Assembly: GCF_036971445.1 (NCBI RefSeq)
Contig: NC_091478.1
Location: 104,842,001 to 104,906,000, forward strand
Source of the DNA: Narcine bancroftii
Taxonomy: Eukaryota
DNA length: 64,000 bases
Direction of reading: 5' to 3'
Shown: piece after piece, positions 5,202 to 17,411 of the stretch
Layout: the number at the start of each line of letters is the position of its first letter
Position numbering within the stretch: position 1 is the stretch's first letter
Position numbers and translations under genes: made by a program
The notes under the pieces: model-generated
What the model saw: the letters and a program-made list of their open reading frames with translations, nothing else
The model's database searches: none
What the model was told of the DNA's origin: nothing

Positions 5202-5315
5202 CTGAGCCGTTGAACACACTCGTAACATTTCCTTTGAGACTCCAGGAGGTGGAACGATTTTGTTGAACAATCCTGTTCTTAGCCGGGGTGTTGGGACTAA
5301 CAATGTTTTTCTAGC
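5202..5315 (-). CDS. MTHFSD: MTHFSD coding exon [38 protein letters not shown]
   Basis: 114 nt, tttatttctgtAG acceptor and CAG|GTGCGT donor; [16 protein letters not shown] is diagnostic. Later exons were not found in the window. Confidence 0.95.
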
Positions 5316-8265: not shown

Positions 8266-9769
8266 ATCAAAATATATCAAAATATCTAAACTGCTGATTT
8301 AAGTGAGCTAATTATTTGGATGTTCTTGAGTTCTGGTTCCAATTATTGAAAAAGAACTGAGCAGACATGGAGAAAAGGTATGTGTGCCAATGCATATCTC
8401 TAAATATGTTGCCACATGCAAAGATGGATGTTGGTAGGAGCAGCAGTATTGACATTTGTACCGAGTCTTGGACGGTGCAGATGAGTATGTAGGTGTGTTC
8501 ATGTTATTGTAATATGTGGTCTTTTAAAGGGGCATGGTGATTACAACTCTAAATAAGAATAACTTTGTTTCTAAAAAAGGAGAACAAAATAGCCTGCCTG
8601 ATTGAGTTATAACAGCTTGTCCCACAAACTGCATTTAAGAAACAATAGGAATGCTCAACGATTAACACAAAATCTTTTACAAGTCAACAAGCATTAAACT
8701 TAAACCATACGTGCAGTTTGTTTGGAAACAAGGAAACTTCAGGAAGGTTCCAAAGGGTGAGTTCAAATCTAGTGATGATTGTTTGGAATAATCCTTTAAT
8801 ACCCTAAAAAGCTGTAAAAAGTAATTTAAACCAACAATGATGTGTGAACATGAGATCGTGTAAACATGTTAACCTTTTCCATTGAAATAAACATTGCAAA
8901 TACATTTACACCTCAAGCAAAAGGATGTTAAAATATTGATAGAAACATATACATTTTAAAGTATTTGCACATGGATCCTTCATGTTCTATTTTACCCAAG
9001 GGATTCTTTTAATTTACCAAGTCGAACCAATGCATTGTAATGCTCTGTGGAATTCAGGATTTAAAGGATAAGACTCCTAAATTCACTTTAATCTTGGGAC
9101 TATAGTGCAGAGAATCAACAAGGAGAGAAAAGGTGATAAAATCTGACTTTGCAATATGTTGCTATTCTTTAAGCAGAGTTGTGTAATTAAGTGCCTTGGT
9201 AATTAGGTACATTTGCTAACAAGAGGTGGTACCATCCTCAAGTTGCTTATTTTATATCGCGTTGGAATGACAAACTTGGCATACTACCTGTTTTTTTTTG
9301 GAAATGTCTTCAGGATATGGGATAAAGATATTCCATTTTTATTACATTTCTTCTATTTGATAGGGTACCCATATTTTGCAAATGATTAACATTAATGCCT
9401 GAATGTTAAATTCAAAATATTATTCAGAGGCTTTTCCTCTGACATTCTAACTGCCCCTTTTGTAACCATTTAAATCTTGGAACATTATACTTATGTTTAA
9501 TATCTATGTAAATCAGACCTTCGAAAAAGAAAGTGCATGGCCAGAAAGGAAAGAGAAACAGGACAAATAGGTTGCTCTACAAGGACATGCCCAGCAGGTC
9601 AGGCTGTGCAAATGAGAGAGAGTAGAACATCGTCACAGATGGATAAGTAAAAGCAGAAATGCCAGTGATGCTGCACCCAGAGAATGCAAATTACAAGTTG
9701 AAGGATTCGACATCGGGTCTGAAAAAGTGCAACCTGCACAGATGGATTCCGTGAACTCCCACACCGACC

Positions 9770-10315
9770 TAACTCCCAGCAGACGACCATTTCAATTTTG
9801 GGCCCCACTCCCACGCAGACATATCTGACCGTAGCCTCAAGCACTGCCAAAGCAAAGCACCCGCAAATTGGAGGAAAATCTAATATTTTGTCTGGGAACC
9901 CTCCAACCAGATGGCTTTAACATCAACTTCTCCAGTTTCGTTTAGGACACTCCTGTCTCTCTCTCTCCCTCGCTCACTTTCCCTATCACTCTCTCTCCTT
10001 TCCTCCAGCTCCCAACCCCCTTCCCTCCCCATTCAGTGAGCTTTCCCTCCCCTGTCACTTCCTGCTTTTTTCTCTTCTGCCCTCCAATCTACATCTACCT
10101 ATGACTTCTTGCCTGTGGGCCTGTGCTCCTCCCCCCATCATATTATTCAGGCATCTGCCAGCTTTTCGCTCATACCTTGATGAAGGGCTCAGACCTGAAA
10201 CGTTGATTACATATCTTGATGTAACATAAAGAATGCTGTGTAACCTGCTGTGTTTCTCCAGCACTTTTGTGTACTGAACTACAATCACAGGGCCTGCAGA
10301 CTTTCTTGTTTAACT
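9770..10315 (+). mobile_element. Penelope-like retroelement 3' end (GIY-YIG C-terminus plus terminal region with hammerhead-like core)
   Basis: Translates HFNFGPHSHADIS... then RKLEENLIFCLGTLQPDGFNINFS* (9862-9945); pyrimidine-rich UTR; TTGATGA-AGGGCTCAGACCT-GAAA at 10177-10200. Confidence 0.75.
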
Positions 10316-10815
10316 CTAATATCAGAAGAGATGTATTTTTTGCTCATTTGAATCATACTTTTCTTTCAAAGTAGACACTAAACACATTGGAAGGGTCAAA
10401 ATGACTCACAGCAAACAAACAAATATCGGAGCTCTATGATTGTATTATAAAATTCAATGGAATATAATGATATCACAGCACTGCTAGAAATAACTTAAGG
10501 TTTTATGAAATATTTTATATTTTGTAGCCTCTATCAAAAGCAACAGCCAAAGTGAACTGGGCACAATCACAGCCAATATACTCAGTTTATTTTTTAATAT
10601 CTTACAGATAATATAGAAGTTTTACTTTCTATTTTAATGCTGAAATTCTCCATTTAATGAATTCACCTTAGTATATGCATTAGTACGCTTTTAAAGCAAT
10701 AACAAATAGTACCAGATTTATCATGTATCATGCAAAAAAATGTAGTACATAATTTATTAAAAATAGGATCTACCAACCTTTTTTAAGAGGTTAAATGTAG
10801 CATCACATAAAATCA

Positions 10816-11072
10816 CACCGGACAACAAACTTTTTCAAAAGGTTTGCTTCCAGAAAAAATTGGGGATTATAATAGACAACTTCAAGCTGAATACAAACAT
10901 AATTTCAGGTTTGCTGTATCACGTAGGAAGTTGGTGGATGATGTCCTGGTGAAACCTTTCAACATGCTCGTCACTTATACACCAAGATCAACAGGGAAGA
11001 AGACCAAGTGTAAATGCAGAAAAAGAATTTTCAATGACATGTAAATCACATCATTCTGTGGACATCATGGTT
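10816..11072 (-). mobile_element. Truncated Chapaev3-type DNA transposon copy
   Basis: Terminus CACCGGACAAC; homologous to 13867-14689; minus-strand HFL/LHLHLVFFP..LG..SDEH.ERFHQD remnant. Confidence 0.65.
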
Positions 11073-11074
11073 AA

Positions 11075-11430
11075 GTAAAAACACAAAATGCTGGAGCAGC
11101 TCAGCTGGTCAAACAGTCTCCTTTATGTAGCAAAGGCAAAAATACAGAACCAACATTTCGGGCTTGAGCCCTACATCAAAGTATGAGAAAATGCCGGCAG
11201 GTGTCTGAACAAGAGTAGGAGGAAGGAAAGGGGGTGGCAAAGACAGGATCCTGGAAAAATACAATGTGCTGAGTAACACAACCAACATCTGGGGGAGAAA
11301 AATTGCTGCTATTTCAGGTCAAAACCTTTCACCAAATTTGGATGAGGAGTTTTGACCCAAAATGTCAATAATTTCCTTTTCCCTCCACTGGTGCAACTCA
11401 TCCTCCAAGTTGTTCCAGCAGACTTTTTTT
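11075..11430. mobile_element. Penelope-type terminal fragments, including a fold-back pair
   Basis: The minus copy has TTGATGTAGGGCTCAAGCCCGAAATGTT at 11151-11180. The segment 11250-11430 has two such termini inverted about ~11337. Confidence 0.6.
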
Positions 11431-11633
11431 CTTTATGATTTCGAACCATTTTTAAGGGGTACAGAAAAAAAATAGAGTTGTTATAACAGCTACTGTACAA
11501 TGAGACATCCATAGGCATTCATACAGTGTGTTCATGATGGCAATTTTTATTCGAGATTTCATCTGAATCAAAATAAAAGCTTTTTGATTAAGGAGCATTA
11601 GTTCAGTCTTTTTTTAAAGTTTTGACTTATTAC

Positions 11634-11747
11634 CTGGAGAGTCGCTAAACGGATTCCTTCAAGCGGTTTGTCAGGGTCGACCTTCACATCTCTTGCTTTT
11701 ATGAAACAATCAAAGTTTTTGATTTTATTACAGGCATCATATGCACC
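11634..11747 (-). CDS. MTHFSD: MTHFSD exon '3b' GAYDACNKIKNFDCFIKARDVKVDPDKPLEGIRLATLQ
   Basis: 114 nt, phase 0-0, ctgcAG acceptor and CAG|GTAATA donor; matches the MTHFSD motif VKVDPDKPLEG.RL. Confidence 0.95.
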
Positions 11748-11776
11748 CTGCAGTGGCATAAGAAACAAAGACTTAC

Positions 11777-11892
11777 TTCTAGCACGAGCAAATAGATATT
11801 TTCCTGTGGCTTGTCAGGATTGACTTTGACAATCCGTGCATTTTTGAACTCTTGGAGACTTGGCAAATTTTCTGCGGCCTGAGCAGAAACCC
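11777..11892 (-). CDS. MTHFSD: MTHFSD alternative exon '3a' (..SAQAAENLPSLQEFKNARIVKVNPDKPQENIYLLVLE); frameshifted from AG 11893, in frame from AG 11879
   Basis: Paralogue of the neighbouring exon (VKVNPDKP vs VKVDPDKP) with a GTAAGT donor at 11776. Length 116 nt from the first AG or 102 nt from the internal tttctgctcAG. Confidence 0.8.
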
Positions 11893-13866
11893 CTGTTTCC
11901 AGAAGATGTGACGAATTACAATTAACAACAATCGGAAACATGGATGCTTTATTATATCTCCCACAATTTCAACTCTACGTGCACCCTTACAGCACATTAA
12001 CCTTTTTACCGACATAAATCTCTTATCTCATTACATCCTAAAAATTCTGGATTACACAAGGGGTTATGTTTCACTGTGGTATTTTGAGCACTGAGGTTGA
12101 AGCAATAAAACTGCAGTACACAGGCACTTAATTTTTCCTCCTGTAGCAAGCAATATATTCATTATTGAAAAACCAGTCGAGAAATATATATCCTAGAAAG
12201 GAATATTGTTGAAATATGTTCTAAAACATTGAATGGTAAAGTGGATTGGATAATAGATGATTACTGGACCTTCAAATCCAGTCTAGATGCACAGGGTAAG
12301 ACTATTTGTTGCTGGTAAATATCCCATGGCAATGTGCTGGCACAATATTCAGTTGTACAGAATACATGTATGGTCCTTTTAGTTCAGCACTGATTAAATG
12401 AGCAGCTCCAAAGACTATTGGATAGTTGGACCATGTAATGGTAGTGTTGAGCCACAGCATTAGGGCAAAGTCGAACTAGTTTTCAAGGCCTACCTATATA
12501 TGTACAAGGGGCTTGGAATTATTTCACACAGCACATTATTTTGACCAGCTATTCTCACCAGGGGCCATACAGCCCCCTCAGTGGCCACAGTACATTTAAG
12601 GGGACCTCAGATTGAAATCATTAAAAAAAAATTTCTTTTATGCAGTCAGTAGGAGAGAAGCAGGGAAGAAACCAACTAGACTGTTTCACAGGGAAGGGGG
12701 GCCATAATCTTTGAGCAGAATTCAAAGGGACCATAGCCAAAAAAGATTTTTTTCTGGTTGTCACAAAATGCCAATGTGCTCTGTCCTCTGTGTGTTTATT
12801 CATGTAAACACTCAACCACAAAGGTATCAAATGGCATACAACTCATGCTTGGACATAATGAGCAACAAGTAATGAGAGTTTATGTTATAGACATGAGTAC
12901 AATGTATAGATTCACCAAAAATATTACTTGCTGCAGCCAAACAGGTACATGAGATAAAATACCAACTCCAATACAATGCATTAAATTACAACAAAATGCC
13001 AAGGCAGAAAAATAGCTAATAAATTTTAAAGCATAGACAGTTGCATTTAGTGCAAGAAAATAAATGTGACAGCTCAATAGTGCAAAAAGATCATTACTCA
13101 TTTAAAACTTATTTGTACATGTATTGTCTCAGCACACATGAGCATAACCAGATACACAAGGCATATTTCTCTACTAGTTAATTCGAGGCTCGCGTACCAT
13201 ATTCACTGCTATGGAGCTTGGTGTATGTTACCTCTTACTGGTATGTTCCTTTAAAGATTTAAACACATCTCGAATCCAATTCAATCACCCCCCTACCAAA
13301 TCGAAGCCCAAATCTGCTTCAATTCTTCTATCCAATGCTATCAGCTCCAAAAATCTTGACCTGACATGAAGTTTCTATTTCCCCACCACCAACACAATCA
13401 TCACCCCTGAAGAGAACTCTAAGCCTCACTCCTCACGTATCCACAGGGGCTCCTATGGCCTTTTCTAATGCAATCCCCATCCCACCACTTGCATAATACC
13501 CAAATCCCTTTGCTCATTTCATTATGGCAGAGCTCGTGAGGGAAAGGCTTTTGACTAAGTTTTGTTTGTGGGACCATTTCTAATGAAGGTTGAATTTTAC
13601 TATCATTGCATTCTATTGCATAATGTAGAGATGAAAGTCTAATTTGCTGCAGTGTCTCTGGTACATAAAACACACAACACATAAATAGAGAGAAAGAAGG
13701 TAATAATCCACATAATGACATAGGCATCTAGGCAAGTCCTTGGTAAATGGTATACCTCTCAAAAGTTAAGATAATGTTGGCCTAACTATTCAAAATTTGT
13801 ATCTTGGACATTATAGAAGTTTGAAACAAAAATTAAATCATAACACAGGAGTGATGTTGCAGGTAA

Positions 13867-14689
13867 CATTGGACAACAATTTTTTTCAAAAGGTTTGCTT
13901 CCTGAAAAAAAAATTAAGGATTATGATAGACAACTTTAAGCTGAATACAAAGATAATTTCAGATTTTCTGTCTCATGTAGGAAGTTGGAGAAACATTAGA
14001 CATTTTATTGAATTTAGCATGTTTAATCACATAATGATGGTAACTCATTGTGTTAGTTCAACTGACCTAAAAATGTTTTGTCACTGATTTCATTTGTACT
14101 CAGCATCTGATGCCTCTCATTCAGTGTCCAACAATAGTCGCCCAACATTCATGGATTAATTGCCCTGGGGTGGCACGGTTGGGCAGAGCGGTTAGTGCAA
14201 CACCTTTACAGCGCCAGCGATCAGGATCAAGATTCGAATCCTGCGCTATCTGCATGGGTTTTCTCCAGGGCTCCGGTTTCCTCCCAAAGTTCAAAAAGTA
14301 CCAGGGGTGTAGGTTAATTGGGTGTAAATTAGGCAGCATGGACTCGTGGGCTTGCTACCGTGCTGTAGGTCTACATTTAATAAATTTGATACTGCTTCTC
14401 CATGGTCGCAATGTCCTGTGAAACCTTTCACTGTGTTCATCACTGGCTGCACCAAGGTCAGCAGGGAAGAAACCCAAGTGTGAATGCAGAAAATGAATTT
14501 TCAGTGACATGTGGCATTTCATGGTTTTGTATGCTTGAAGTGGACTTAGAATAGGACAGGAAATCAAAAAAAAGGTTAAATCTAAAAATGCTACGTGATA
14601 GGAAAAATTTAAGGTTTTATTAATCCTGACCATTAGTAGCACACAAATATCCAAAAGTGTTCAAGAAGCAAAATCTTTGTTGTCCAGTG
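13867..14689 (-). mobile_element. Internally deleted Chapaev3-like DNA transposon
   Basis: Termini CATTGGACAAC / GTTGTCCAGTG with TAA target duplication; transposase remnant MSLKIHFLHSHLGFFPADLGAASDEHSERFH.DIATMEKQYQG...LGDYCWTL. Confidence 0.75.
14165..14387 (+). mobile_element. tRNA-derived V-SINE (HE1-like) nested in the Chapaev element
   Basis: A box GGCACGGTTGG..AGCGGTTAG, B box ATTCGAATC, V-domain ttctccagggctccggtttcctccca, AT-rich tail; splits the YQG codons of the host element. Confidence 0.8.
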
Positions 14690-14769
14690 TAATTGGTACA
14701 AAAAAACTTAACGTATTACTTGGAACTGGCCACTTGACATGTGAGTGATCAAGGCCCCCAATTGTAAAC

Positions 14770-17015
14770 CTTTTTTAAATATATAAAGAGTAAAAGATTG
14801 ACTAAAGTAGACAAGGACTAATAGAAAACAGTCCTGGAGAAATTGTAATGGGAGACAAGGAGATGGCTGAGGAATTGAATGAATATTTTGGATTAGTTTT
14901 CACTGTAGAAGATACTAGTAGCATACTGAACTCTCATGGGTCTCTGGGAAGAGAAGTGAGTGCAGTCAAGATCATGAGATAGAAGGTTCTTGGGAGGTTA
15001 AATGGTCTAAGGGTAGATAAGGCTCCAGGACCGCATGAAATGCACCCTCACATTCTGAAGGAGGTACCTGTAAAGATTGTGGAACCATTAGTAATAATCT
15101 TTCAGTAATCAATTGATTCTGGCATAGTTCCGGTGGACTAGATGATCGTGAATGTCATTCCACTGTTTAATAAGGGAGTGATGCATCAGAATGGAAGTTG
15201 TAGACCAATTTGCTGGACGTCAATGGATGGGAAGGTGTTGTAGTCAATTGTCAGCATGGTTTCCTTAAAGGAAAATCATGCCTGGCAAACTTATTGGAAT
15301 TTTTTTGAAGAGATCACAAGTAGGACAGACAGGGGAGATGCAATAGATGTTGTGAATTTGGACTTTCAAAAGGTTTTTGACAAGGTGCCACACGAGGCTG
15401 CTAAACAAGATGAGAGTTCATGGAATTACAGAGAATAGTAGGATGGGTAGAGCATTGGTTAATAGGCGGGAAACAGAGAGTGAGAATAAAGAGATCCTAT
15501 TCTGATTGGCTACCAGTTACCAGTGGTGTTCCGCAGGGGTCAGTGTTGGACCACTTCTTTTTCAATGATTTGGATTATAGAATAGATGGTTTTTTGTCTA
15601 AAATTGCAGACGATACCAAAATACATGGTAGGGCTGTGCTGAGGATAAAGAGAGAGGCTGCAGAGAGACTTGGATAGATTTGAAGAATGGGCAAAGATGA
15701 AATACAATGTTGGAAAGTGTACGGATATACACTTTGGTAGAAGAAATAGATGGGCAGACTATTATTTAGATAGGAAGAAAATTCAAAATTTGGAGGTGCA
15801 AAGAGATTTGGGAGTTCGCGGTCAGCATACCCGAAAGGTTAACCTCCAGGATGAGTTGGTAGAGAAGGCGGCGAATGCAATGTTGGCACTCATTTCCGGA
15901 GGAATAGCGTACAAGATCAGGGATGTAATGTTGAAACTCTATAGGGCACTATAAACCTCCCTTAGAGTACTGTGTACAGTTTTGAGCACTTTATTTGAGA
16001 AGAGACGTGCTGTCATAAGAGAGTTCAGAGAAGATTTAATAAAATGATACCAGAAATGAAAGGGTTAGCATATGAGAGACATTTGTTGGCTCTTGGACCG
16101 TACTCATTGGAGTGCAGAAGGATGAGGGCACACCTCAGAGGCATTTTGAACAGAGATGTGGCAAGGATTTTCCCATGGTAGGGGAGTCAAGAACAAGGTA
16201 CAACTTCAGGATAAAAGGGTGTCAATTTAAAATACAGATGAGGAAAAATTTCTTTAGGATTGTAAGTCTGTGGAATTTGTTGCCACAGGCAGCTGTGGAA
16301 GTGAGGATGGGTGTATTTAAGGCAGAGATTGACAGATACAGTATACTCCTATTATCTGAGATGGTCGGGACTAGGCCTATTTCAGATAAACAATATTTTT
16401 GGATGACTGGTCATTTTTTAAAAATAGCCCAGTAGCAACAGCAAATCACTTGTAACAGGGTTTAAACAACAACAAACAATAAGGGAAGGCTTTTAAAGCA
16501 CGAAATAACATTTAATTTTCACCAAAAAACAACCTGAGCAAAATAAGATAAATCATACGTCAAAAACTTGAAATTCTACTCAGAGGTTTTTCCAAAATTC
16601 AAAAATTTTTTCAATCTGTGATGTCAGTTCGGCTCTGAAAATATTTTGGATAACTGAGGATTTCTGATTGTTTCAGATATCCTCATTTATCCAATATTTT
16701 TCGGAGGCAAAATTATGCCATTTCAGGTTCAAAATTTTTCAGATAAATTTGGATTTCTGATTTTTCTGAAATCCTCAATTGTCTGAAAAATATTTCGGAG
16801 CCAAACAGAAAATTTAGGATAACTGAGGATTTCATAATCCAATTTTGTATTATCAGAGTTTTACTCTATTTGATAAGTCAGGGCATCAGGGGTTACAGGG
16901 AGAAAGCCAAGGGGAGGGGCTGAGTGGGAGGATGTATCAGCTCATGATTAGAATGGTGGAGCAGTCGAGATGAGCCAATGGGGCTCCTTCTGCTCCAATA
17001 TCTTGTGATCTTGTA
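14770..17015 (+). mobile_element. CR1 LINE interrupted by a MITE
   Basis: LDFQKVFDKVPH, SGVPQGSVL, ADDTK motifs and CR1 3'UTR; the sequence resumes at 16867. Confidence 0.9.
16339..16866. mobile_element. Tc1/mariner (Tigger/pogo-like) MITE
   Basis: TA duplication (gacagaTA|...|TAtttgataag restores the CR1); termini CAGTATACTCC / GAGTTTTACTC; internal inverted repeats ~16624-16810. Confidence 0.8.
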
Positions 17016-17307
17016 AACATAAAATCATCAATTACAGTGTTAAATTAAAAATAAACTTTTCTCTCAGTCCTCACTTTTTGTTGCAAATACTTAGTTAGAG
17101 TTAACAAAACATTCCATTGGCCACATAGCCTTTGATTACTTTTCACTACCATTTGATCATTTAGTCAATCTGCAGAGTGCACATGGTCAACAAATTCCCG
17201 TTCAGTCTGCTTGAAGCACTGTTCTGAGCACATCAGGCAAAGCTTGCTCATCATCCACTGTGTTTAGAATTCCCTATAATGAATCTAAAGAACTGAGAAT
17301 GCATTAC

Positions 17308-17411
17308 CTTGAAATTAGGAATTCTGTGATGAACTGGTCTTGGGAAGTTTGCCAAATTGTTTTTCTCCATGTAATCCCAAACCTTCTGCCGAATGTCCCA
17401 TTTAGTAACAC
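17308..17411 (-). CDS. MTHFSD: MTHFSD coding exon (G)[34 protein letters not shown]
   Basis: 104-nt exon bounded by tttcttctaAG and GTAATG; [13 protein letters not shown] is the MTHFSD/COG0212 signature. Confidence 0.95.

What the first reader, a model, noticed from the sequence alone, without database searches (positions are those of the whole stretch)
11634..11892. Tandem duplicated MTHFSD exons 29 nt apart: sterically enforced mutually exclusive splicing
Seen: two homologous 38-codon blocks on the - strand (3a: ..QAAENLPSLQEFKNARIVKVNPDKPQENIYLLVLE; 3b: GAYDACNKIKNFDCFIKARDVKVDPDKPLEGIRLATLQ). Each has its own AG and GT, and the spacer is only GTAAGTCTTTGTTTCTTATGCCACTGCAG (11776-11748). 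Known: 29 nt is well below the usual minimum vertebrate intron, so the two cannot be spliced together. Inference: the 3b branch point (about -26) overlaps the 3a donor, so U1 and U2 would compete for the same bases. I recall mammalian MTHFSD isoforms with equivalent exons; if so, the switch predates the shark/bony-vertebrate split and swaps part of the 5-FTHF cyclo-ligase-like domain.
Basis: partly seen in the sequence, partly recalled or inferred. Interest (0 to 1): 0.8.

Follow-up and report, generated by a model that had tools for sequence, protein, structure and literature searches.

The report
Ancient exon switch, broken in ray
This is the already catalogued either-or exon pair of the vertebrate MTHFSD gene, only 29 bases apart and so likely too close to be spliced together, but in this genome (likely a ray) the probably older exon is out of frame at its first splice site and only the other exon was seen in spliced transcripts, so the switch has likely broken here.

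Summary
The two homologous blocks, the 29-nt spacer and the splice dinucleotides are real (15/38 aa identical; no shuffle of 10,000 comes close). The pair is known: human MTHFSD exons 3a/3b are an annotated mutually exclusive pair, dated to Vertebrata, 32 nt apart (supplements of PMC5740500, PMC8373072). Steric exclusion follows from geometry: every adenine in the spacer lies within 23 nt of the 3a donor, far below the ~50-nt limit. No lariat data exist here. Its first AG gives 116 nt (frameshift, stop at the exon end); the next gives 102 nt, four residues short. All 141 orthologous 3a blocks have 38 codons, and a near-invariant Arg (84/85) is Tyr here. Contigs of 4 of 4 putative RNA runs (one study) join exon 2-3b-exon 4. 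The last exon also has a stop and a frameshift that remove the RRM, which is intact in 14 of 14 other cartilaginous fish. Best reading: an ancient steric switch whose 3a arm recently decayed in this lineage. The frameshift was not checked against independent reads.

The parts
17308..17411 (-). MTHFSD exon 2 (104 nt), upstream constitutive exon, donor in phase 0
   Evidence: tblastn 97% to Pristis MTHFSD; covered by the spliced contig in 4 of 4 runs
11777..11892 (-). Exon 3a as defined by the first AG: 116 nt, frameshifting, stop TAG at 11781-11779. Orthologue of the NPDxPQ-type exon
   Evidence: 92% to Pristis 3a over the aligned part
11885..11892 (-). 5' end of 3a: eight bases where relatives have two codons (net +2 nt, in short G and T runs)
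   Evidence: 141 of 141 orthologous 3a blocks keep the 38-codon register
11777..11878 (-). Alternative in-frame 3a from the second AG: 102 nt, 34 codons, lacks the first four residues of the helix
   Evidence: weaker pyrimidine tract, 7/16 against 9/16 for 11892 and 12/16 for 3b and exon 4; no 34-residue form among 141 blocks
11792..11797 (-). 3a codons 32-33, Ile-Tyr where relatives have Ala/Val-Arg
   Evidence: Ile in 0 of 85 and Tyr in 0 of 85 distinct 3a blocks; Arg in 84 of 85
11748..11776 (-). 29-nt spacer: 3a donor (GTAAGT) overlapping the likely 3b branch adenine at 11773 (-26), short pyrimidine tract, 3b acceptor CAG
   Evidence: branch point inferred, not mapped
11634..11747 (-). Exon 3b, 114 nt, 38 codons, DPDKPL-type; the form seen in spliced contigs
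5202..5315 (-). MTHFSD exon 4 (114 nt), downstream exon

Best explanation
Exons 3a and 3b are the vertebrate MTHFSD duplicated-exon pair, 29 nt apart and so likely unable to be spliced together, but here 3a is out of frame at its first acceptor, so the switch has likely decayed and 3b is probably the only working form. Mechanism, step by step. (1) Shown: every adenine in the spacer lies within 23 nt of the 3a donor. (2) Inferred: the 3b branch point is A-26, inside the bases that U1 pairs with at the 3a donor, so U1 on the 3a donor and U2 on the 3b branch site would compete for the same nucleotides and one exon is chosen. (3) Shown: the first AG of 3a gives 116 nt and a stop at the exon end. 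(4) Inferred: such transcripts would be removed by nonsense-mediated decay, because further exon junctions follow. (5) Inferred: the perfect 3a donor persists because the damage is recent and because the same bases serve as the 3b branch site. The exon encodes helix-helix-strand-helix in the core of the cyclo-ligase-like domain (predicted).
For: Spacer and adenine positions. Threshold of ~50 nt donor-to-branch-point as used in PMC5740500 (57 clusters, 9%) and PMC7969005. Likely vertebrate minimal intron 76 bp (PMC9438311); candidate human ultra-short introns are 37-65 nt (abstract of PMC4463651). Short spacer elsewhere: human 32 nt; three read-through gene models give about 9, 12 and 12 codons in two frogs and a lizard (P0008, P0012, P0016; two are flagged low quality, so +/-2 nt). 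Among 38 cartilaginous-fish proteins from 14 genomes, 8 genomes have separate 3a and 3b models and only 1 protein joins both. Decay of 3a here: no 114-nt form possible; 141 of 141 blocks in 38-codon register; Arg33 (84/85) replaced by Tyr and Ala/Val32 by Ile (0/85). One contig joins exon 2, 3b and exon 4 with 0 mismatches and 0 gaps in each of 4 of 4 putative RNA runs. Exons 2, 3b, 4, 5, 6 and 7 are intact and two forkhead ORFs in the window run uninterrupted for about 490 codons each, so indel errors are not general in this region. A second module of the gene is also broken: a TAA after 73 codons of the last exon and a later frameshift inside the RRM, whereas the RRM is intact in 14 of 14 other cartilaginous-fish genomes.
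Against: The frameshift was not checked in reads of an independent individual, and it sits in short G and T runs, where long-read errors cluster (recalled). 3a is otherwise well kept: 34 of 37 aligned residues match Pristis, with splice dinucleotides and donor intact. 3b also carries one residue unseen in relatives (Asp20, 0 of 28) and two rare ones, so odd residues are not limited to 3a. An in-frame AG lies 14 nt downstream. The RNA evidence is contigs from one study with unknown tissues, and contigs drop rare forms. 17 of 179 proteins join 3a directly to 3b: Pristis, one bat, one gar and 14 teleost models, five of them numbered RefSeq isoforms. These are annotation artefacts or lineages with a longer spacer; their spacer lengths were not measured. 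No branch point was mapped.
Confidence: 0.6

Rival explanations
1. The switch still works: the downstream AG at 11878 rescues the frame and gives a 3a isoform four residues (about one helical turn) shorter.
For: 102 nt, in frame, no stop. The deleted residues are the first turn of a predicted helix (44-55) that follows a low-confidence loop. The donor is perfect and most residues are conserved.
Against: Weak tract (7/16 pyrimidines) and a competing AG 14 nt upstream that comes first after all candidate branch adenines. No 34-residue 3a among 141 blocks. Arg33 is lost regardless. The spliced contigs in 4 of 4 runs use 3b.
Confidence: 0.15
2. The frameshift is an assembly error or a private allele of the sequenced animal, and the species has an ordinary intact 3a/3b switch.
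For: The lesion lies in short homopolymer runs. A single missing G would give an in-frame 117-nt exon. No independent DNA was checked.
Against: An error would not explain Ile32-Tyr33 or the stop by substitution plus a 2-nt loss in the last exon. Six other exons of the gene are clean. A 117-nt exon would itself be unique among 141 blocks.
Confidence: 0.12
3. 3a has been converted into a regulated poison exon: because it excludes 3b sterically and carries a premature stop, choosing it switches MTHFSD off through nonsense-mediated decay, and this is selected.
For: The 116-nt form has a stop 2 nt before its donor, with further junctions downstream. Splice signals are intact. In human, both exons vary in inclusion across embryonic and ENCODE samples (adjusted P 1.6e-6 to 0.011; PMC5740500 supplement), so a regulatory handle exists.
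Against: No inclusion of 3a was seen at all, and no sister species shares the frameshift among 13 genomes with a 3a model. Recent neutral decay predicts the same DNA.
Confidence: 0.1
4. Exclusion is not steric: the 29-nt spacer can be removed and 3a and 3b can be joined, as the Pristis and teleost gene models suggest.
For: 17 of 179 proteins join the exons directly, including the closest relative, Pristis.
Against: 29 nt is below the reported vertebrate minimum (introns under ~30 bp are considered generally absent from animals, start of the abstract of PMC13644364). The Pristis protein is a single model without numbered isoforms. Three other models read through the spacer, the sign of an unspliceable gap.
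Confidence: 0.03

Closest known systems
Human MTHFSD exons 3a/3b (MXE cluster 1051 in PMC5740500; event 139 in PMC8373072)
   Same: Orthologous exons, same order, 114 nt each and phase 0-0 in human, spacer 32 nt against 29 nt here, event dated to Vertebrata.
   Different: Both human exons are intact. Here 3a is 116 or 102 nt, lacks the conserved Arg, and the C-terminal RRM is cut off by a stop.
Steric-interference mutually exclusive exons, e.g. OGDH 4a/4b (PMC7969005) and the 57 human clusters under 50 nt in PMC5740500
   Same: Donor-to-branch-point distance below ~50 nt, kept across vertebrates.
   Different: OGDH uses distant branch points 25-41 nt after the donor in a longer intron, mapped experimentally. 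Here the whole spacer is 29 nt, so the branch site would overlap the donor itself; this is not mapped.
COG0212 5-formyltetrahydrofolate cyclo-ligase paralogues (plants, prokaryotes) and solved cyclo-ligases (1ydm, 1wkc, 2jcb, human MTHFS 3hxt/3hy3)
   Same: PF01812 domain over residues 13-210 of the shark protein; fold matches at E 1e-8 to 2e-6. The 3a motif NPDxPQ is the commonest in distant relatives, 56 of 88 parsed from 150 proteins, including Rosa COG0212.
   Different: Only 12-20% identity to the solved enzymes. The biochemical function of COG0212 is unknown and linked to thiamin metabolism by association (passages of PMC4120688). No activity of either isoform was tested.

Membership tests
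Homologous mutually exclusive exons (tandem duplicated exon substitution) | Adjacent exons homologous to each other | tested here: met
   15/38 aa, score 60 against a shuffle maximum of 25 in 10,000
Homologous mutually exclusive exons (tandem duplicated exon substitution) | Same length class and phase, so either exon keeps the frame | tested here: not met
   3b 114 nt; 3a 116 nt (frameshift) or 102 nt (four residues short). Met in orthologues: 141 of 141 blocks at 38 codons
Homologous mutually exclusive exons (tandem duplicated exon substitution) | Each exon is spliced singly between the flanking exons | tested here: inconclusive
   3b yes, in 4 of 4 runs of one study; 3a not seen, but contigs drop rare forms
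Homologous mutually exclusive exons (tandem duplicated exon substitution) | The two are never included together | tested here: inconclusive
   No joined contig among the pieces shown; 17 of 179 proteins of other species are annotated as joined
Steric-interference MXE | Upstream donor to downstream branch point under ~50 nt | tested here: met
   Spacer adenines (other than the acceptor AG) lie 3, 4, 18 and 23 nt into the spacer; threshold
Steric-interference MXE | Short distance conserved in evolution | tested here: met
   Human 32 nt; about 27, 36 and 36 nt from three read-through models. Teleost spacers not measured
Steric-interference MXE | Branch point mapped, and lengthening the spacer permits double inclusion | not testable with these tools
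   Needs lariat reads and minigenes
MTHFSD orthologue | PF01812 domain encoded by the orthologous exon set | tested here: met
   Exons 2-7 match at about 76-98%; domain call on close relatives
MTHFSD orthologue | C-terminal RRM in frame | tested here: not met
   TAA 73 codons into the last exon, before the RRM, and a later frameshift
Poison (NMD) exon | Inclusion places a stop well upstream of later exon junctions | tested here: met
   116-nt form: TAG at 11781-11779, with exons 4-8 downstream
Poison (NMD) exon | Regulated inclusion, stabilised by NMD inhibition | not testable with these tools
   No raw RNA reads or perturbation data were offered

The most novel reading that the evidence does not exclude
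This ray is a natural double knockout of two ancient MTHFSD modules at once: the ancestral 3a exon (or its conversion into a sterically locked poison exon) and the RRM. That would imply that the 3a isoform and the RRM serve one shared RNA-linked function, separable from the 3b cyclo-ligase-like protein, with a branch site that physically coincides with the rival exon's donor as the on/off element.
Probability: 0.12. Interest if true: 0.55.

Novelty: new variant of a known kind. Interest (0 to 1): 0.28.

Why it matters
Two points are of modest value. First, a 29-36 nt spacer kept from rays to humans is an extreme, easily tested case of steric exclusion, in which the branch site would overlap the rival donor; I found no paper text that discusses it for MTHFSD. 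Second, if the lesions are real, this lineage has lost both the probably ancestral exon and the RRM of a poorly understood, ALS-linked RNA-binding protein (link cited in PMC8116631). That shows which parts a vertebrate can do without and gives a handle on what the two isoforms do.

Tried and rejected
No RNA holder was listed on record as RNA; four runs guessed to be RNA gave spliced contigs. In those four, the depth of bin 11724-12137 equals what the 23 bases of the 3b contig alone give (6.82, 2.49, 3.07, 3.14), so no contig was laid on 3a. Contigs show presence and not absence, so I do not count this as proof that 3a is silent. Three DNA runs hold all 49 sampled words of 11500-12000 and one holds 0.96; the chance that none of 49 words covers one given site is about 0.036. 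They are from the sample that may be the source of the assembly, so they are not independent and were left out. The joint table was swamped by intronic repeats. A search for a closer relative with the last-exon stretch found only Pristis and Heterodontus (3 proteins), so the lesions cannot be dated. No solved structure of the MTHFSD cyclo-ligase domain was found by sequence, so 3a/3b differences could not be mapped to a ligand site. Exon 1 was not found in the unmasked window. PMC9741552 and PMC8140736 supplements held no MTHFSD row. The COG0212 primary paper is not held. The scan's own notes held nothing on this gene or place. A first tally was off by one column and was replaced. Rejected: chance similarity and a second copy of the exon pair elsewhere in the genome.

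Full report
1. Observation. 3b is 11747-11634: 114 nt, 38 codons, in frame between exon 2 (17411-17308) and exon 4 (5315-5202). In register the blocks share 15 of 38 residues and 59 of 114 bases; the BLOSUM62 score is 60, and the best of 10,000 shuffles is 25. The stretch occurs once in the own genome. The AGs near its start give 116 nt (11892), 102 nt (11878) or 95 nt (11871). The 116-nt form shifts the frame and meets TAG at 11781-11779; the 102-nt form is in frame and four residues short.

2. What gene, what organism. The closest proteins are MTHFSD of rays and sharks, best Pristis pectinata at 92% over 3a (7 hits), so the genome is likely a ray (inference). Exons 2, 3b, 4, 5, 6 and 7 are intact. 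Two forkhead-domain ORFs lie upstream on the plus strand; that they are FOXC2 and FOXL1, as beside human MTHFSD, is recalled. In an AlphaFold2 model of the white-shark 3a isoform (mean pLDDT 76.6, 46-sequence alignment) exon 3, residues 45-82, forms helix 44-55, helix 57-61, strand 64-67 and helix 71-82. It lies inside PF01812 (residues 13-210), and the model matches solved 5-formyl-THF cyclo-ligases at E 1e-8 to 2e-6.

3. Conservation. Among the 179 proteins (a set biased to 3a by the query), 121 carry 3a only, 31 carry 3b only, 20 carry both and 7 neither. 3a models occur in sharks, rays, bony fish, amphibians, reptiles, birds and mammals. Of 14 cartilaginous-fish genomes, 13 showed a 3a model, 10 a 3b model, and 8 had them in separate isoforms; 1 of 38 proteins (Pristis) joins them. 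Scallops and a starfish have a single 3a-type block. In the wider search (2,565 hits, best 150 listed) 88 of 150 could be parsed; 56 have the 3a-type Asn...Gln pair and 13 the 3b-type Asp...Leu pair. The 3a type includes a plant COG0212 protein and a butterfly, so 3a is probably the ancestral type (inference). The 3b-type pair also occurs in a leech and an isopod, which weakens that polarity slightly.

4. Already known. The supplement of PMC5740500 lists both human exons as 'annotated MXE', 114 nt, frame 0-0, cluster 1051 (rows seen). The supplement of PMC8373072 lists event 139 with last common ancestor Vertebrata. Its coordinates, chr16:86552179-86552292 and 86552033-86552146, leave 32 nt between the exons (my subtraction). 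Three gene models that read through the spacer add about 9 codons (Discoglossus), 12 (Mantella) and 12 (Lerista), each starting Val-Ser as a GT-A/G-AG donor would (the two frog models are flagged low quality). So a spacer of roughly 27-36 nt is kept in five lineages. I found no main-text discussion of this gene's mechanism in the listings of three searches (11, 28 and 2 papers) or in the passages read. The Appendix and Dataset EV2 of PMC5740500 were too large to open and may list it among the 57 steric clusters.

5. Mechanism of exclusion. Apart from the acceptor AG, the spacer has adenines at -27, -26, -12 and -7 from 3b, that is 3, 4, 18 and 23 nt after the 3a donor; three more lie at the end of 3a (-33, -31, -30). 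Only -26 and -12 have T at -2. -12 is closer to the acceptor than branch points usually are (recalled), so -26 (11773) is the best candidate. It lies inside the nine bases that U1 pairs with (established knowledge). Any choice is far under the ~50-nt limit used in PMC5740500 and PMC7969005 (passages), and 29 nt is below the likely vertebrate minimal intron of 76 bp (passages of PMC9438311) and the 37-65 nt human ultra-short candidates (abstract of PMC4463651). The geometry is shown; the branch point and the competition are inferred. Against universality: 17 proteins join 3a directly to 3b, 14 of them teleost, five as numbered RefSeq isoforms of cichlids and Gambusia. Either these are artefacts or the lock was relaxed in some teleosts; I could not measure their spacers.

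6. 3a is damaged in this genome. All 141 orthologous 3a blocks start directly after exon 2 in the 38-codon register; this genome has two extra bases at that end. Position 33 is Arg in 84 of 85 distinct 3a blocks and Tyr here; position 32 is Ile here, seen in 0 of 85. For balance, 3b has Asp20 (0 of 28) and two rare residues, all conservative, and 3a still matches Pristis at 34 of 37 aligned residues, so any decay is recent. Candidate branch adenines for 3a lie 17-31 nt before 11892, so the frameshifting AG comes first; its tract has 9 of 16 pyrimidines against 7 of 16 for 11878. In each of 4 of 4 putative RNA runs (four samples, one study, tissues unknown) one contig covers exon 2, 3b and exon 4 in a row with no mismatch or gap, bridging over 3a (the listed ends are shifted by one base where junction letters are shared). 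These are contigs, which drop rare forms. The frameshift itself was not checked in independent reads.

7. A second lesion. The last exon (beyond the window, L014) has TAA after 73 codons, before the RRM, and a 2-nt loss with a further stop inside the RRM. If exons 1-7 have the lengths of relatives, the protein would end near residue 303. The RRM is intact in all 14 other cartilaginous-fish genomes (12 by pattern, Hypanus and Rhincodon by eye). A stop by substitution plus a later indel is what relaxed selection gives, and it makes a lone assembly slip at 3a less likely. It too is unchecked in reads.

8. Verdict. The steric lock is well supported by geometry and by conserved spacer length, without direct test. 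In this genome the switch is most likely broken, leaving 3b (0.6); rescue by the second AG (0.15), assembly error or private allele (0.12), a selected poison exon (0.10) and non-steric joining (0.03) remain. New variant of a known kind; interest 0.28. Papers seen: PMC5740500 (passages, supplement rows), PMC8373072 (supplement rows, listing), PMC7969005, PMC9438311, PMC4120688, PMC8116631, PMC12215730 (passages), PMC4463651 (abstract, outline), PMC9741552 and PMC8140736 (supplement search without hit), PMC13644364 (listing only). The scan's notes held nothing on this gene.

Noticed in passing
L014:692-302, minus strand (G000 C22:104832092 downward; about 10 kb beyond window position 1): The last MTHFSD exon has an in-frame TAA before the RRM and a 2-nt loss with a further stop inside it; the RRM is intact in 14 of 14 other cartilaginous-fish genomes.
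   Followed up: partly
Proteins P0014, P0083, P0126, P0128, P0134 (cichlids, Gambusia) and nine further teleost models: 3a and 3b are annotated joined in one protein, in five cases as numbered RefSeq isoforms. The steric lock may have been relaxed in some teleosts; spacers not measured.
   Followed up: partly
Proteins P0233 (Helobdella), P0273 (Armadillidium), P0194, P0207, P0214 (unnamed): The Asp...Leu pair typical of vertebrate 3b also occurs in single-block non-vertebrate proteins, while most distant relatives have Asn...Gln. The two positions seem to co-vary, a hint of a shared structural or ligand contact.
   Followed up: partly
window 45136-46614 (+) and 54069-55550 (+): Two uninterrupted forkhead-domain ORFs upstream of and opposite to MTHFSD; resemblance to FOXC2 and FOXL1 and to the human gene order is recalled.
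   Followed up: partly
Proteins P0167, P0169, P0170, P0175, P0099, P0338: Shark and ray models that skip both 3a and 3b (four) or skip exon 4 (two); all these exons are 114 nt, so skipping keeps the frame but would remove core elements.
   Followed up: no
window 9650-11300 and 13800-17100: High-copy repeats in introns 2 and 3, with very high contig depth in the laid runs.
   Followed up: no
window above 17411: Coding exon 1 of MTHFSD was not found in the unmasked sequence, although the spliced contigs carry 85-101 further bases upstream of exon 2.
   Followed up: partly
window 61929-62390 (+): A 153-codon open frame that looks like a fragment of a LINE-type reverse transcriptase (resemblance recalled, not tested).
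   Followed up: no
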